Assembly: GCF_964194155.1 (NCBI RefSeq)
Contig: NC_135901.1
Coordinates: forward strand, 3,348,001-3,412,000
DNA length: 64,000 bases
Direction: 5' to 3'
Source: Cetorhinus maximus
Taxonomy: Eukaryota
In this document: in pieces, positions 54,285 through 63,585 of the stretch
Position numbering within the stretch: the stretch's first letter is position 1
Layout: every line of letters begins with the position of its first letter
Made by a program: the position numbers and the translations under genes
Notes under the pieces: generated by a model
Database searches by the model: none
What the model was told of the DNA's origin: nothing
The model's input: the letters and a program-made list of their open reading frames with translations, nothing else

Positions 54285-54570
54285 CCATTTCAGAGTCCGC
54301 TTCATTGCTGTGGTCCTGGAGTCACATGTCGGCAGGCCAGGTAAGGACGGCCGATTTCCTTCCCTAAAGAGCATTCGGAACCACATGAGGCTTTATAAAA
54401 ATCTGATAGTTTTATGATCATCATGACCAGCCTTTTTAGATTTATTCCAGGTTTATGAATTAATTAAATTTATCCCCAGATACCCTCAGTGGGATTCAAA
54501 CTCATGTCTCCAGACAATCATCCAGGTCTCTGGATCACTAGTCCAGTAGAATTAACACTCTACTGCCATT
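54285..54570 (-). mobile_element. Older SINE copy
   Basis: Core ggagtcacatg..ggccaggtaaggacggc.gatttccttccctaaag and decayed B box. Confidence 0.7.
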
Positions 54571-54574
54571 CCCT

Positions 54575-55161
54575 TGTGTATGTATTTAGCAAGAGCCTGC
54601 AGGCTGATGAGACTCTGTTAAATTGCTGGTGTGCTCCTGTACTGCTCTGTTTTAACAGGAGCCTGCAGGCTCATGAGACTCTGTTAAACTATCAGTGTGG
54701 TTCTGTATTCTGCCTGAAATGTAAAATGACTGAACCTTTTGTTCCTGTTATGAAATGAGGGTGTATATTAATGAGTCTCACATCCTTGCCCATGTCTGCT
54801 GCAATTGTGTAGAAGGGGGATGTGTAGAAGAGCTGGTCTTTGTATGGAGATGTGAACCAAGGAAACGGTATTTGTGTGTGATAGTGACACAGCCTTGTGC
54901 TTACACTCAGAACAATGCACAGATATCCTTGTTATATGCTGAGCAGAGTCAGATCATGAATGTAGTGAACAAGTTAAATTTAAATATCTCCTGAGTAGCC
55001 ACAGTTTGTTAGATCACAGCTGAGAAGAAGAGAGTTCTGTATTATCACTGTTATAAAGAAAAAGTAATCATACTCTATTATTCCCAGGATGTTAATAAAG
55101 TCGGTAAAAAACAATCTGTTGTAGCTTAATTTTCTGGTGTCTGAAACCACAAATTTCAACA
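54575..55161 (+). mobile_element. Possible LTR with an internal ~68-bp direct repeat
   Basis: gagcctgcaggct(g/c)atgagactctgttaaa occurs twice; AATAAA 55094; ends ttcaaca. Confidence 0.4.
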
Positions 55162-55884
55162 TTTAGAGTCAACAAGATGAGCAATTAAACACATCAGGGC
55201 CCAATACTGCAGATCAATATTCCCAGGGGAAAGCCTGTATCCAACATCTCGAGTAGATGGAACAGAGAAAGATCCCAAATATATGAAATCCTGAATCATT
55301 TTGTAAATATCTTTCAAATGCCGATAGGATCCAGCTGTCAGTTTCCGATACATTGAAGTCAATGGAAAGTGAGAGAGAGGCTGGAGAGTCAGGTTGAAAG
55401 CAGAGTTGGGGCCACTTACACTGAGACACCAAATCCAGGGACCATGAACACAGAGTATAAAATGGGAATCAGAGAGTCTCAGTCTGGGGAATGGTCCTGG
55501 TGGTGAAACCAGCTCTAGCGAGGGTGAAAGATGAGGAATAGATGAAGCGATGATGATGGAATCAGATGGTGACCAGCGGGGCTGCTGATTGGTTACTGTC
55601 AAAATCTCTTTTCAGGCAGGATGATGATTGGCTGTAAGCAGCTCAACATCTGGATCCACCTGCTCTTGTCCTGCAGTCTAATGTCCCTGATGTTTGTTTC
55701 TGTGCGAAATGTCAAGATGTGAAAGGAGGGAGGAAATCGGGCTCGAGCCAGAAGCAAGGGTCCTCAAATGAACAATTCATGAAGCTGTTTTGTGATTCGT
55801 CTGTATGAGGTTCAAATACAAAAAATGGAAAAGGATGTGTCAAGTGATACTGGTGTTATCAATTATGGTTTCTAACTCTCATCA

Positions 55885-56275
55885 TTAACTCCCAAACCTA
55901 ACATCCTATTGGCCAGCCCAAACCATTAATCCCAATCCCAACCACTGACCCCAATCCCAATCGATAACCGCGAACGCACAAATACTGACCCCAACCCCAA
56001 TCGATAACCATGAACGTACAAAAACTGACCCCAAACCCAACCAATAACCACTACCTGCAAACATTGATCCCAAACCCAATCAATAACCCCGAACACTAAC
56101 CCCAATCTGAACCAATAACAGCTAACCCCAAACACTGACACCACCCTAACCAATAACCACTGCTGCAAACACTGACCCCAATTCTAACCAATAACTGCTA
56201 ACGACACCCAAACCCTAGCCCAATTCCTAACCCCAGCCCCAATCACTAAGACCAGCACCTAAGACCCAGCTTAAC
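55885..56275. repeat. Degenerate C/A-rich ~40-bp minisatellite with telomere-like hexamers
   Basis: Unit actgaccccaa(t/c/a)cccaatcgataacc..; scattered ccctaa, cccaaa, ccctag. Confidence 0.8.
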
Positions 56276-58442
56276 TAAGGATCATTGACAGGTAGCTATG
56301 GAGGGGCTAAAGGGCTGACACAGGAAGAATTTGAAACAATTCGCTCAATTAAGGTAATAGTACGAGGTATGTTCGTAACAAGAGATTAAATCAATGAGAC
56401 CATCAAAATCAGCAATGAAAATTACAAAGATCAGAACATTTCAAAAGTTCTCACACACAGTACACGTGGAGTAGTTTTACTAAATCAGGTTCCAAAAGGG
56501 TAAAATAACACAGAAAATAACAGATTTCAAATCTCATACAAGATTGTTCTCTACAGAGTTGTGCAAATGAAATCTAGATGTGTGTAAAGTGAAACATTAC
56601 AGTTCAGCCTGTAACCCACAAGCAGCATAATCAAACGGAACAAGCTTGGGGTTTCTTTTCTTCTGCTGTCGGGGAGTAGAAGCAAAAACCACCTTAAATG
56701 TCAATATCTGAGTCAGACACCCAGGCCAAAGCTTCTGGTGTAACAGTGTGGATATCTGATAAGCTGCCTGTGAATTTCCTCTGAGGACAATGTTTGACCA
56801 TGTGCTGCAGGGTCTGTTTAGGAGCTCCACAGTCTCATGATAGGAACAGGAGAAGGCCACTCAGCCCATCCAGCCTGCTCCCGCCATTCAATATGATCAT
56901 GGCTGATCGAACACTTCAATGCCTTTTACCCCACACTATCCCCATAACCTTTTATGTTATTGTTAATCAGAAATCTATCAATCTCTCATGATGGAGATGT
57001 TTTAATCTTCCAGCTATTGAGAAGGTGGCAGCATCCACCATGACCCGGTCTGAGGCTCTTCAGGCGTGGATGATCACAGCCTTCTCAGGGCCCATCCTGT
57101 TACATGATCATAGATCACAACTAACATCATCGCAAAGGACTCTGAACTTGTCATTGAATCAACCTCCGGTGAGAGCAGCAAATCAAATGAAACTGTCCTC
57201 TTCAGGACCAAAGAAAACCACACATTAGACCAGCTATCCCAATATGTCAGCTTAACATCTAAGGCATCTCTCACTCAAAATGCCAGTCTCTCCAAAGGTT
57301 ACTCAGGAAACACAGCATTGATGCCCTGGTTCCTCAGGAAACACATATCGAACACATTCACCAGTTCAACACAAAGAGGACATATTAAAGGTTTTGACCT
57401 AATCGCTTGCAATGACCATCCCAATACGGTCATAGGCATGAACATACTCGGCCCCGTGAGCCTGCTCCACCATTCAATAAGATCATGGTTCCACCTACCC
57501 CCAATAACATTTCACCCCCTGGTCAGGTGTGTTACATCAAATAAAGTATCGAGGGCTGCACCAAACTGAAGCAGACCAGTGTTTCTGGACTTTTCACTAC
57601 GGCAATAAGTGTAGGAGAGTTAACAATCTACAGATGACTATAAACCAACAATCGTACCTGACCCACTGCTTCCTCCTCATCAACATCCATCCATCCATCT
57701 CAGAATCTTCAATATCTACCACACAATGTGGGGTTATGTAGATGTCAACTATAATGGAGAAGCAATTGTACAGTGAGCTTTACTAGAAAATAACTTCCTC
57801 CTTTTTGTTGTCAGGGTTCAAGGTACATTCCATTAATCAAGGTGGCAGAGAGAATATAACTTGGATCTATGCTTCTTCTCCAACTAAAGCAAAGGAAACC
57901 CAATCACCACCTCCAGAACCATTCCTGACAAATTCCTAACAGTCAGCACAGGTTTTCCCATCATCCCATCATTGGCAATGAAAATCCTGTCATCACATCA
58001 ACAGCAGAAACACGATGGAATTTCAAAAAAGAAAACCGGGAAATCTTCCAAAAGGCAATTGACACCAACATCAGGTGGATTTCACCAATGTGTTCAACAG
58101 ATTTATGGGATTGATGAAAGTTCGGAGCTAAATATGGAGAAGATGGACTCGATGAGAACAGAAATAACCTTGAGTTAGAAAAGGCCCCAAATAATGGCCC
58201 AGTCAGGAACAGAAGATCAATCAGTCTCCTCTTATCATTGGGGAAATCAAATCTTCAAAACACCGTGTGTCTGAAGCAAAGCTGATTGAGTCAATATTTA
58301 CACAGAACATCAATGTGCAACCCAGCTATCAAGCTTATTAATGTCAGCAGCAACAAACTCTGACTGTCAGAATGAACATGGTTCAGTCCTGGATGTGATT
58401 AACTACAGCAATAACAACAGAATCCAAATCCAACCCCTGCAG

Positions 58443-59312
58443 TCACTTGTGAACTCGCTGGTGCCTCAGCAGTGTGGATGAACGACTGAATCTCTTTCCA
58501 CACACGTGGCAGGTGAATGGCCTCTCGCCACTGTGGACTTGCTGGTGGGTCAGCAGGGTGGACGATTGAGTGAATCCCTTCCCACACACTGAGCAGATGA
58601 ATGGCCTCTCCCCAGTGTGACTCCGCTGGTGATTAAGTAGGTTGGACATCCAAATGAAACCTTTCCCACAGAAAGAGCAGATGAATGGTCTCTCCCTGGT
58701 CTGTGTGTGTTGGTGCATCAGCAGATCAGCAAGGTTTTTAAAGCTCTTCTCACAGTCTGGACATTTAAATGGTATCTTATCAGTGTGAACAAGTTGGTGT
58801 GTCAGGAGGTCGAATGAACGGGTGAATCCCTTCCTGCACACAGAGCAGGTGAATGGCCGCTCCCCGGTGTGAGTGCGTTTATGGTTCAATAGATCATTCT
58901 TCCTTTTATATTTTTTGTCACAGTCAGAACATTGAAAAGGTCTTGCCTCACTATGAATACGATGATGTGACAGGAGGTGGGATGAGTTAGTGAAGCCTTT
59001 CCCACACACGGAGCAGGTGAACAGTCTCTCCCCTGTGTGAATTCGCTGGTGTCTCAGAAGGTGGGATGATTTAGTGAATCCCTTCCCACACATGGAACAA
59101 GTGAATGGTCTCTCCCCAATGTGACTGCGGCGATGAATATGCAGCTCAGACGGGTAATTGAATCCCTTCCCACAGTCCCCACATTTCCACGGTTTCTCCC
59201 CAGCTGGACAACACTTGTGGTTTGACAGGTTATATGATCGTCTGAAGCCTCGTCCACACAGAGAACACATGAATGGCTTCTTCCAGTTATGAACAGTACT
59301 TTCTGATTCCAT
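58443..59312 (-). CDS. C2H2 zinc-finger protein, 10 finger units (2 atypical), type A
   Basis: Open frame from ATG 59312 ([13 protein letters not shown]) to HQRVHK*; acceptor ttttacag| with exon starting 59419. Confidence 0.92.
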
Positions 59313-59889
59313 GTTCAAAAGCTGATCTTGTTCGTGTCCCAATGAATTGAGTGACTGTCAGATTCTGATGCGATGATTGATTTGAGGTTCCCATCCACAA
59401 ATCATCTCCTTCGAATATCCTGTAAAATTAATTCAAATGGGAGAAAGAGAAGTGATAAACACAGTAGCAGGTTGTGAAATTGAGCTGAATGAGTCTGGTA
59501 ACTTGTGGGGAGGGCACTAGGAAAAAGTGACCATGAAAGCTGCCATTGTCATTAAAAGCCCAACTGATCCTTCAGTGAAGGGAATCTGGCCTGGACCTAC
59601 ACAAGAATCCAGCCTCGATGGGAGGAGAAAGACTGAGGTGGGAGAGGGAGGGAGTGAATGAGAACCTTCACCAGCCCAAAGGACAGTGGAACAGTATCAA
59701 CCGCAAATTCCCCTTCCAATCGCAAACCAAGCTGACTCACACTTACAGTGCCATTACCTCATTGTTGCTGGGTGAAAATCTTGTAACTCCTTAACTCAGC
59801 ACTGTGACAGTACCTTCACCACACAGACTGCAGCAATTGATCAAGCATCACCTTCTCAAGGGGAAACTGCTGATTGTCAATATTTTTTT

Positions 59890-60215
59890 GAATTCATTCA
59901 CAGACGTGGGTGTCGTTGGTTAAGCCAGCATTTAATGCCCATCCCCAACTTCCCTTGAGATGGTAGAGGTGAGTCACCTTCTGGAAAGGCTGAAGTGCAT
60001 GTGTTATAGGTACACCCAGTGTTGTTAGGAAGGGAGTTCCACGATTTTGATCCAGCAACAGTGAAGGAATGGGAATATAGTTCCAAATCAGGATGGTATG
60101 TAGCTTAGAGGGGAACTTGCAGGTGGTGATATTCCCATGCATCTGCTGCCGTTGTCCTTCTCGGTGGTAGAGTTCGTGGGTTTGGAAGGTGCTTTTTGAA
60201 GGAGGCTGAGAGAGT
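59890..60215 (-). mobile_element. LINE family 2 3' end
   Basis: Same tail as 41765-42070. Confidence 0.8.
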
Positions 60216-60479
60216 TGCTGGTCATGCTCGTGATGCCCATGTCCCAATAATTAATTGTAAAAGTTTCTGTATTTGAAATATAAAGCGTCGACATAAATAC
60301 TGTCTCCGACTTGAAATACGGCTTTTAATTGGTCCGTCTGTGTTTCTATACTCGGATTTATCAGCAACGCGTACAATTAAACAAAAGCAAAACATGCACA
60401 TGCAGGATGTCTGAAATTTTTACAAAAGTGTTTGCTAAGTCAGCATCTGTGGAGAAGGAAACAGAGTTTGCAACAAAAC

Positions 60480-60940
60480 ACTCACCGATAGGCACTGACT
60501 CATGGTGGCTGATTCCCACAATCCCCCGCGCCCCAGAAACCGCTCTATCCAGCTCGCTCCTTTCCCCAGGTGCTGAGTGCGCATGCGCCCAGGGCCAGCC
60601 GCGGGGCATTCTGGGTGGCTCCCTTGTTGTGAGTCGCACTCGATGGAAACGGGAGAAGAAACAGAGAAGCGGCGGCGAGGATGGGGGAGGCGCTGCAGCA
60701 TCGCTTTAATGGGCAGCCCCTCACCCCCGACCCCCAGCCTCCCAGCCCGGGGAAATTACCGCACGGCCGCCGGGCCCGGCCGCTCTTTCTCGATCTCTGA
60801 GAGCCGCATTCGCTGTTCCTGAGGCTGCCACATCGCGCATGCTCTGTGCATGCAGGCGGACACAGGGGGCGGGGCCTTTCCGCACCTGCGCGTTACGGCC
60901 CTTCTGATGGGGATGGGACATGTTCACGCGCGCGGAACAT
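60480..60940 (-). promoter_or_regulatory. CpG island/first exon, cassette A copy 3
   Basis: Homolog of 22725-23030; donor CG|GTGAGT at 60485; tgcgcatgcgc NRF1 ~60578; ZNF143-like sites; GC box ~60866. Confidence 0.8.
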
Positions 60941-60949
60941 TATGGACAG

Positions 60950-62048
60950 GCTAAAAGCAAAAAACTGCGGATGCTGGAAATCCAAAATAAAAATAAAAAT
61001 ACCTGGAAAAACTCAGCAGGTCTGGCAGCATCTGCGGAGAGGAACAGTTAACGTTTCGAGTCCGTATGACTCTTCAACAAAACAAAGTAAAAATAGAAAA
61101 GAAGTTAAAAAAAAGCTGGTTTAAGGGGGGGAAACAGGTAGAGCTGGATAGAGGGCCAGTGATAGGTGGAGATAGCCAAAAGATGCCACAGACAAAAGGA
61201 CAAAGAGGTGTTGAAGATGGTGATATTATCTAAGGAATGTGCTAATTAAGGATAGAAAGCAGGATAAGCAAGGTACAGATAGCCCTAGTGGGGGTGGGGG
61301 AAGGGATCGAAATAGGCTAAAAGGTAGAGATAAAACAATGGATGGAAATACTTTTAAAAATAATGGAAATAGGTGGGAAAAGAAAAATCTATATAAATTA
61401 TTGGAAAAAAAGGGGGGTGGGAAAGAAGGAGATGATTTGTGGATGGGAACCTCAAATCAAACATCGCATCAGAATCTGACAGTCATTCATCTTCCGACTA
61501 GGCACTTTACAGCCTTCCGGACTCAATATTGAGTTCAACAATTTTAGATCATAAACTCTCTCCTCCATCCTCACCCCCTTTCCGATCCACCCCCCGCCCC
61601 CCCCTTTTTTCTGATAATTTATATACATTTTTCTTTCCCCACCTATTTCCATTATTTTTAAATGTATTTCCATCCATTGTTTTATCGTTACTTTTTAGCC
61701 TATTTCGATCCCTTCCCATCACCCCACCCCACCCCACCCCCACTAGGGCTATCTGTACCTTGCTTGTCCTGCTTTCTACCCTTAATTAACACATTCCTTA
61801 GATAATATCACCATCTTCAACACCTCTTTGTCCTTTTGTCCATGACATCTGTTGGCTATCTCCACCTATCACTGGCCCTCTATCCAGCTCTACCTGTCCC
61901 ACCCACCCCCTTAAACCAGCTTCTATTTCACCTCTTTTCTATTTTTACTTAGTTCTTTTGAAGAGTCATACAGACTCAAAACGTTAACTGTGTTCCTCTC
62001 CGCAGATGTTGCCAGACCTGCTGAGTTTTTCCAGGTATTTTTATTTTT
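60950..62048. mobile_element. Penelope-like retroelement, fold-back (inverted) insertion with 11-bp TSD
   Basis: Arms ~60990-61415 and ~61595-62048 are reverse complements; right part encodes IFRLGTLQPSGLNIEFNNFRS* (ORF end); TSD attatggacag 60939-60949 and 62049-62059. Confidence 0.88.
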
Positions 62049-63049
62049 ATTATGGACAGACTGACTCGCCATTCATATCTGTTCGCAGGGAGAGGAAAGT
62101 CAGGGGTTACAGTCATAGAAAAGTAGAATGTAAAACAATGAACATTATCCACTTCCCGGAGAAGTGAATATGTCGGAGAAAATGATTATGTTAATTGCAA
62201 AGAATTACTTTTCTTTGATTTTAAATAGTTCAGTTTATACATTGAATCATGTTTAACTGTATTTCCGAACTCAGATGCATGGACTCATTTTTTATGTTCC
62301 TCTGAGCCCCTGAACTCCATCTGGCTGCATAATGTTAGTCAGTGGTGATTGATTGTCCTGGGAACTCCTGGAGATGGCTGAAGCTCCAAACAAGGGAGAT
62401 GTTCCAACATCTTCCACAAGAATGAGAATGGATACAGAACTGGTTACCATCAGCAGCACAGGGCAATCAAGGCAACTCTGAGGTTCGACAAAATCCAATC
62501 CATGTAAGACAGAAAGGTACTAACCTAGTCCTATTCCTTACATGGTTCAGGTCCTCAATGAAGGATTTAAATGATGAAATCCATGTGTATTTCAGTGCCG
62601 GTATTATACAAGTGATGTATTGATTTGTAATTTTAATATAATTTTAATTCCATATTCCTTCTTTTAATATCCATTACCACTTCCCTGTAATCTGAATTTG
62701 CTTGTCTATTCTTCTTACTACATGATTCTTACATGTTTCTATATTTTTAACTTGATTATTTTGTCTATATATGAATTTTCTGATGTAAGTCACACTTTAA
62801 TTCAGCCTCTGGCTGCGAACGTGTTTCTTGAATAAAATACCATTATTATAGCTCACAGTATGGGATCACAAACTCAGAATTACCAATTGGCACTGGACAG
62901 GAGGGTAAATAGTGACTAGGATTGAAACCCACCATCACACAGCAGCTTCATGAGAGAAAGGGAGAAAAATCTGAGCATTGCATCCCTGTTGATGTTTATA
63001 GGCTGTATTCTACCACATGGAGCATTCTGGGTAGCATCATCCACCATTA

Positions 63050-63585
63050 TCTTCAGATGCTGCCAAAAGAAGGTGGTCAGTTCATCGTATTTGTACCTGC
63101 TCATTAGTGTAGCGATTGAATTAGTCCCACTCCCCTGTTCTTTACTCATAGACTTGGATATTTCTTCCCTTCAACTTTTCACCCAATTCTCCCAAGAATG
63201 TTGCTATTGAATCTATTTCCAGCACCCTTGCAGGCAGTGCATTCCAGATCACAACAACTCACTGCTTTAAAAAATGTTCTTTTGGTAATCGCCTTAAATC
63301 TAAGTCCTCTGGTTACTGAACCTTCTGGAGAGCCTTCCTCCTTCTTTCCTTCTGTCAAAACCGCTCATCATTTTGAACTCCTCTATCACATCTCATAGCC
63401 CTTTTGTTCTGAGGAAAGCAATCCCAGTTTCTCCAGTCTTTCCATGTAACTGAAGCCTCTTATCCTTGGTACAATTCTAGCAAATCTCTTCTGCATCCTC
63501 TCTATGGCTTTGACATCCTGTTTCAAATGTGATACCCAGAGCTGAAGACAGCATTCCTGCTCAGGTCTAACCAGTGCTTTAGAAA
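63050..63585 (-). mobile_element. Decayed CR1 3' fragment
   Basis: CR1 tail-like and tcaggcagtgcattccag-type segments; weak ORF2 end similarity. Confidence 0.6.

What the first reader, a model, noticed from the sequence alone, without database searches (positions are those of the whole stretch)
60939..62059. Fold-back Penelope insertion that captured 65 nt of the adjacent ZNF gene's exon
Seen: an 11-bp TSD flanks two ~430-bp inverted arms. At the junction, 61425-61489 matches the reverse complement of 59348-59412 at 63/65 nt. That source is the start of the coding exon of the ZNF gene whose promoter this element abuts; other paralogs in the window match far less well. The piece has the same sense as the Penelope ORF end, with a short ca(c/t)tca overlap. 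Known: inverted pLTR arrangements are typical of Penelope-like elements. Inference: the RT switched template onto the local nascent ZNF transcript, or repair copied nearby DNA. Read-through RNA would fold into a long hairpin with ZNF sequence in the loop, which could feed back on the gene.
Basis: partly seen in the sequence, partly recalled or inferred. Interest (0 to 1): 0.8.

Follow-up and report, generated by a model that had tools for sequence, protein, structure and literature searches.

The report
Penelope insertion with neighbouring-gene filler
A jumping gene landed in the promoter of a zinc-finger gene in the head-to-head form that is usual for its family, and the seam between its two halves holds a short copy of that same gene; this looks like a rare accident of insertion rather than a new system.

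Summary
ATTATGGACAG flanks the element (60939-60949, 62049-62059), and a paralog carries it once (empty site). The arms are 88.7% alike. The 65-mer matches the adjacent ZNF exon at 63/65 and is not family sequence. The locus is assembled four times with the same junction.

The fold-back itself is ordinary. The element is a Penelope/Poseidon-type retrotransposon with at least 3,562 exact 38-mer hits. 26 of 151 other insertions are TSD-flanked fold-backs, and 25 of those 26 have the known 'tail' on one arm only.

The host filler is the rare part: none of the 26 has one. One of 90 other junctions carries a filler matching DNA about 1.8 kb away.

Best reading: both target strands were primed, and the right-arm cDNA switched at a 4-nt microhomology onto the ZNF sense strand. 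Whether the template was nascent RNA or DNA is unresolved. Two more distant paralogs fit equally well over 63 nt. Hairpin feedback on the gene is unsupported. Closest known event: L1 templated insertions, whose templates lie much closer to the site.

The parts
60939..60949 (.). Left target-site duplication ATTATGGACAG
   Evidence: single copy at empty-site paralog L061
60950..61424 (-). Left arm: inverted 3' end of the element (reference positions r2229-2707), including the ~31-nt 'tail' at about 60950-60980 that the right arm lacks
   Evidence: 15/459 differences from the column majority of other copies
61425..61489 (+). 65-nt filler in ZNF mRNA sense; about 1 nt overlap with the left arm, 4 nt (CTCA) with the element ORF
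61489..61554 (+). Last 21 codons of the element ORF (IFRLGTLQPSGLNIEFNNFRS*)
   Evidence: read; matches the C-terminus of the RT/GIY-YIG ORF of copy L096
61555..62048 (+). Right arm: 3' UTR/pLTR ending at the short 3' end (about r2678)
   Evidence: 24/542 differences from the column majority, counted over the whole right piece
62049..62059 (.). Right target-site duplication
59348..59412 (-). Donor of the filler: nt 8-72 of the last exon of the adjacent ZNF gene (putative 3' splice site at 59420|59419)
58443..59312 (-). C2H2 zinc-finger ORF, 10 zf-C2H2 stretches; first ATG at 59312
60501..60938 (-). CpG-rich putative promoter and first exon of the ZNF gene (putative ATG 60809, splice donor GT 60759); inferred from sequence only

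Best explanation
A Penelope/Poseidon-type retrotransposon cut the promoter of a ZNF gene with an 11-nt stagger (shown: TSD and empty site). It extended both 3' ends by target-primed reverse transcription, one from the long and one from the short initiation site, giving two outward-facing arms (inferred from the family pattern and PMC11167929). The right-arm cDNA stopped 66 nt inside the ORF end and annealed through CTCA to the sense strand of the neighbouring gene about 1.5 kb away, most likely its nascent RNA or the DNA strand displaced by transcription. It copied 61-65 nt and was then joined to the left-arm cDNA with about 1 nt of overlap (inferred). The whole locus was later duplicated. The filler is a by-product of junction resolution with no shown function.
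For: Intact TSD and intact flank. Right junction: 4-nt exact microhomology, chance 0.016 at a random junction; the imperfect 14-nt similarity was reached by 143 of 20,000 random pairs. Left junction: 1 nt exact, and its imperfect similarity is not unusual (14% of 5,036 local 22-mers); this favours priming at the right junction. The filler shares a 2-nt deletion with the local donor lineage that four older window paralogs lack. Filler decay 2/65 (95% CI 0.4-10.7%) is compatible with arm decay of 3.3% and 4.4%. Arms differ at 30/430, more than the 4.3% flank distance to the empty paralog allows for one copy made from the other (P=0.008), which fits two RNA templates. Templated junction pieces recur in the family: 3 of 26 strict fold-backs have a third, element-derived piece. 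L167 has a 45-49 nt filler matching DNA 1.8 kb away, in the sense of a putative exon and crossing its putative 3' splice site. In vitro a Poseidon PLE cleaves and extends both strands and prefers ATT; this TSD starts with ATT (PMC11167929).
Against: Orientation does not discriminate in a fold-back, and the filler contains no splice junction or poly(A). L167 also fits copying of resected DNA, sits at a ~130-bp target deletion without TSD, and its donor is a repeat in which the local copy leads by one base (48/49 vs 47/49; 40 of 613 candidates scored). Paralogs L014 and L015 match filler nt 3-65 as well as the local gene. The age interval of the filler is wide, so later repair is not excluded. 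In the other 19 measurable fold-backs, arms share derived variants more often than random pairs (0.55% vs 0.16% per site), so arms are often of one source lineage; this locus has the highest arm divergence of the 20. Only 1 of the 26 other strict TSDs begins with ATT as read on the + strand.
Confidence: 0.5

Rival explanations
1. DNA-templated filler made during insertion: the left-arm cDNA folded back onto the resected left flank (+ strand exposed to 59412), was extended 65 nt by a repair polymerase or the RT, released, and annealed to the right-arm cDNA through CTCA.
For: The inverted orientation on the same side of the break is what snap-back gives. L167's donor is also on the flank strand that resection would expose. 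L1 templated insertions are attributed to cDNA pairing with nearby DNA (bioRxiv 2024.08.27.596794, passage).
Against: Needs at least 1.5 kb of resection with no flank loss and priming on about 1 nt. The L1 templates cited lie typically within 15 bp of the site.
Confidence: 0.25
2. The fold-back inserted without filler; its centre later broke (hairpin or cruciform) and was patched by copying nearby DNA.
For: Long inverted repeats are fragile (recalled). Two paralogs lack window 60924-63500, with the left break 15 bp from the TSD. Filler divergence could be lower than that of the arms (CI from 0.4%).
Against: All 4 assembled copies carry the same filler. The arm 5' ends (r2229, r2124) are within the range of other fold-backs. 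The spacer between the arms is 180 bp.
Confidence: 0.15
3. The template was a transcript of a non-adjacent paralog (the L014/L015 lineage) met in trans, as in LINE-1/mRNA chimeras; the adjacency is coincidence.
For: Both paralogs match nt 3-65 at 61/63, with the same two differences. LINE-1/mRNA chimeras exist (PMC13174262 passages).
Against: They lack 3 nt at the filler's start, where the local gene matches 2 more nt. Landing 1.5 kb from a matching gene by chance is unlikely when only 6 exons among the 40 best-scored matches (120 candidates) reach 97%.
Confidence: 0.07
4. Assembly artefact at an inverted repeat.
For: No listed contig bridges the filler junction; the listing is cut and fragmented by the repeat.
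Against: Four places on three contigs hold the identical junction while differing elsewhere by private changes; the filler differs from its donor at 2 sites in all four.
Confidence: 0.02

Closest known systems
Penelope/Poseidon PLE insertions with inverted pLTR and one-sided 'tail' (PMC3846280, PMC8557442 passages; PMC11167929 main text)
   Same: RT plus C-terminal GIY-YIG ORF, head-to-head inverted 5'-truncated copy, ~31-nt tail on one arm, TSD around the whole unit.
   Different: The junction holds host sequence traceable to the neighbouring gene. The passages read report host DNA or genes captured between pLTRs, not copied from beside the target site.
L1 templated insertions (22 instances in a set of 3,598 insertions; bioRxiv 2024.08.27.596794 passages)
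   Same: Short (<250 bp) duplicated genomic piece built into the retro-insertion; rare (here 1 of 90 other junctions).
   Different: Different RT class; there the templates typically lie within 15 bp of the site, here about 1.5 kb (and 1.8 kb in L167).
LINE-1/RNA chimeras by template switching or twin priming (PMC13174262 passages) and multi-transcript complex L1 insertions (PMC11702581 passages)
   Same: Non-element sequence joined to the element inside one TSD pair, in sense orientation to one arm.
   Different: Here the piece sits between two element arms and matches the gene at the insertion site; an RNA template is not proven.

Membership tests
EN+ Penelope-like elements (Penelope/Poseidon type) | Single ORF with RT domain | tested here: met
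   743-aa open frame in family copy L096, Pfam RVT_1 E=1e-5 but 25.8 bits, below the 29.6 cut-off; YIDD motif visible. The window copy keeps only the last 21 codons.
EN+ Penelope-like elements (Penelope/Poseidon type) | C-terminal GIY-YIG endonuclease with two Cys between GIY and YIG | tested here: met
   By eye only: LVYCIRCSQCGLLYIGES near the C-terminus, feature as stated in PMC8557442. Pfam did not report GIY-YIG.
EN+ Penelope-like elements (Penelope/Poseidon type) | Inverted/tandem pLTR arrangement with 30-40 nt tail on one end, flanked by TSD | tested here: met
   Window and 25 of 26 strict fold-backs have one long and one short end; TSD 10-15 bp.
EN+ Penelope-like elements (Penelope/Poseidon type) | Hammerhead ribozyme in the pLTR | tested here: inconclusive
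   A core-like motif is seen by eye in copy L094 (motif recalled) and is degenerate in both window arms; Rfam gave no hammerhead match.
EN+ Penelope-like elements (Penelope/Poseidon type) | RT phylogeny within the Penelope/Poseidon clade | not tested
   No tree built; the clade name rests on domain order and insertion anatomy.
Templated insertion at a retrotransposition junction | Non-element piece inside the TSD pair that duplicates nearby genomic sequence | tested here: met
Templated insertion at a retrotransposition junction | Template within about 15 bp of the site, as typical in the L1 set | tested here: not met
   About 1.53 kb.
RNA template-switch chimera | RNA-processing mark (exon-exon junction, poly(A)) in the captured piece | tested here: inconclusive
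   The filler stops 7 nt short of the putative splice site, inside one exon.
RNA template-switch chimera | Donor transcribed in the germline | not testable with these tools
   No RNA holder listed.

The most novel reading that the evidence does not exclude
Penelope RT, when it primes both target strands, can finish an insertion by jumping onto the nascent pre-mRNA of the gene it lands in or beside, preferentially near 3' splice sites 1.5-2 kb away. The window and L167 both sit at a putative acceptor in sense orientation. Such fillers would record which loci were being transcribed at the moment of germline insertion, and about 1% of junctions in this large family would carry them.
Probability: 0.2. 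Interest if true: 0.6.

Novelty: new variant of a known kind. Interest (0 to 1): 0.36.

Why it matters
The late steps of Penelope insertion are stated to be unvalidated (PMC11167929). This family offers thousands of natural products. The strict long/short asymmetry of fold-backs and rare kilobase-range fillers constrain how the two cDNAs are joined, and a genome-wide filler census would test RNA against DNA templates directly. The single locus has no shown function. It is also a usable marker for ordering duplications in a large ZNF cluster.

Tried and rejected
65-mer as part of the element: rejected (loose ends at 61487 in all four laid runs read as element ORF). A better distant donor: none among 40 scored of 120 candidates. 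One arm copied from the other: disfavoured for this locus. Extended homology at the left junction: not beyond chance. Rfam: no match in the element and only sub-threshold unrelated hits in L094. PDB sequence search with the ORF: none. Sequencing runs: no RNA holder listed. Contigs of 4 runs were laid; none listed bridges the filler junction, and one contig of another organism reaches only 21 nt into the element, too short to count. Six other local hits were set aside as flank repeats (75-84% identity) or matches of 22 nt or less. Wider flanks for L054 and L077 showed no convincing local donor. 11 of the 37 loose fold-backs were dropped for lack of a TSD of 10 bp or more; several look like two separate neighbouring insertions. 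45 of the 90 junctions were tested with only about 1.5 kb of flank, so donors at 1.5-2 kb could be missed. Earlier scan findings: none. Paper searches listed no report of local gene fillers in Penelope junctions; the library is partial and supplements were not read.

Full report
Setting. The window is G000:C24:3348001-3412000 of a 4.0-Gb genome, inside a dense cluster of C2H2 zinc-finger genes. It resembles a cartilaginous fish by recalled likeness of the repeat and the cluster; this was not tested.

Observation. ATTATGGACAG occurs at 60939-60949 and 62049-62059. A paralog with about 95% identical flanks (L061) joins the two flanks through a single copy, so it is a true TSD. The arms align at 88.7% over 459 columns, and the left arm has about 31 more nt at its outer end. 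61425-61489 matches the reverse complement of 59348-59412 at 63/65; the next window paralog gives 83% over 59 nt. The donor is nt 8-72 of the last exon, upstream of the zinc-finger ORF's first ATG at 59312. The 65-mer occurs at 100% in four places (two on C24, C568, C215), each about 2 kb from its own 63/65 donor. These are duplicates of the whole locus at 99.8-99.9% with the same junction and private differences elsewhere; the two small contigs may be haplotypes. Two other paralogs (L014, L015; 94-95% in the exon) match nt 3-65 at 61/63, lack 3 nt at the filler's start, and lack window 60924-63500 altogether.

The element. An exact 38-mer of the arm occurs 3,562 times. Copy L096 has a 743-aa open frame with an RT domain (RVT_1 E=1e-5, below Pfam's cut-off) and a C-terminal VYCIRCSQCGLLYIG motif; its last residues match the peptide at 61489-61554. 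None of 26 other copies has the 65-mer upstream of this point. Rfam found no hammerhead.

How common is the fold-back? I mapped one natural copy (L094) onto 142 fetched loci. Among 151 other insertions with a 3' end, 37 were head-to-head pairs and 26 had a TSD of 10-15 bp. In the sample anchored on chromosome-1 pattern hits the figures are 29 and 20 of 105; a few loci are segmental duplicates of each other. In 25 of the 26, one arm ends at the long 3' end and the other at a shorter one. This is the described inverted pLTR with one-sided tail (PMC3846280 and PMC8557442, passages). PMC11167929 (main text and start of methods) shows a Poseidon protein cleaving and extending both strands from two initiation sites that bound the tail. 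The architecture is therefore known and ordinary.

How common is the filler? Of the 26 strict fold-backs, 12 join bluntly or with overlap, 10 have 1-10 nt, 1 has 18 nt and 3 have a third piece from the element itself. None has host sequence like the window's. Of 90 other junction-adjacent sequences searched against their own flanks (45 in 8-kb loci, 45 in about 3-kb loci), seven gave a local hit. Six were flank repeats or short; one, L167, abuts the junction at 94.5% over 55 nt. Homologous repeats show that L167's native flank ends inside that match, leaving a 45-49 nt filler with a CACA overlap and a ~130-bp target deletion. Its local donor, 1.8 kb away, is the best of 40 scored among 613 candidates but leads by one base. 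It spans what looks like a 3' splice site followed by an open frame in the same sense as the element (inferred from sequence).

Mechanism. Family copies read CACCTCA|TCTT and the donor CACTCA|ATTC, a 4-nt exact overlap (chance 0.016) within a similarity reached by 143 of 20,000 random pairs. The left junction shares 1 nt, and its looser similarity is unremarkable. That favours the right-arm cDNA switching onto the ZNF sense strand, then joining the left arm. The filler carries a 2-nt deletion found in the local lineage (including L014/L015) but not in four older window paralogs. Its 2/65 decay overlaps that of the arms (15/459, 24/542; family median 2.7%). The arms differ at 30/430 while the flank differs from the empty paralog at 83/1935 (P=0.008), so they probably came from two RNA templates. 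Against this, arms of other fold-backs share derived variants about three times more often than random pairs. Sense orientation cannot prove RNA: snap-back of the left arm onto a resected flank gives the same product, and L167 fits either. I put the sense-strand switch at 0.5, DNA snap-back at 0.25, later repair at 0.15, a distant paralog at 0.07 and artefact at 0.02.

Feedback. A read-through RNA would fold into a long hairpin (-731.6 kcal/mol) with seven perfect runs of 21 bp or more. The ZNF piece lies at the top of it: its first 23 nt pair imperfectly with element sequence and the rest is loop or short local helices. Duplex-derived small RNAs would be element sequence. Transcription was not shown, so this part remains speculation.

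Comparison. L1 templated insertions are the nearest described event: 22 instances, under 250 bp, typically within 15 bp of the site, attributed to cDNA pairing with nearby DNA (bioRxiv 2024.08.27.596794, passages). LINE-1/RNA chimeras and multi-transcript insertions are described in PMC13174262 and PMC11702581 (passages). Host DNA between pLTRs is described in PMC3846280 (passages). Searches listed no paper on local gene fillers in Penelope junctions; the library is partial and no supplements were read.

Verdict. Real and correctly described. The fold-back is known; the kilobase-range local filler is a rare variant of templated insertion, seen twice here. New variant of a known kind, interest 0.36.

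Noticed in passing
family survey, L035-L187: 25 of 26 TSD-flanked fold-backs pair one long and one short 3' end, while simple insertions use either end. Independent choice of start site on each strand would give many long/long and short/short pairs, so the two priming events look coordinated.
   Followed up: partly
L167:3684-3732 (locus G000:C1:68648300-68656299): Second junction filler, 48/49 to a local repeat 1.8 kb away that spans a putative 3' splice site. The element sits in a transposase-like ORF (Harbinger-like by recall) with a ~130-bp target deletion.
   Followed up: yes
window 60924-63500 versus L014, L015: Two ZNF paralogs lack this 2.6-kb stretch; the left break is 15 bp from the TSD. 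It could be a deletion that removed the element or an older unrelated loss.
   Followed up: partly
window 60930-60955, also 60606 and 63022: The TSD overlaps a motif conserved in six older paralogs as (A/G)CATTCTGG(G/A)TAG. It resembles a ZNF143/Staf site (motif recalled; PMC3627581 passages note ZNF143 enrichment at zinc-finger gene promoters). A short palindrome lies at about 60920-60940.
   Followed up: partly
window 59287-59419 and 60759-60809, minus strand: A 2-nt deletion in this ZNF lineage turns the putative exon-1 frame into a 60-aa upstream frame that no longer runs into the zinc-finger ORF. Exon structure is inferred, without RNA.
   Followed up: partly
L133, L160, L162, L179 and others: Several miniature fold-backs start at almost the same position (r2571-2577), just upstream of the hammerhead-like motif. 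Possibly a short ribozyme-cut RNA acts as template.
   Followed up: no
L061: The empty-site paralog lacks window 54550-60850, that is the ZNF gene itself, yet keeps the upstream promoter part.
   Followed up: no
window 55900-56230: Degenerate tandem repeat of about 39-nt units.
   Followed up: no
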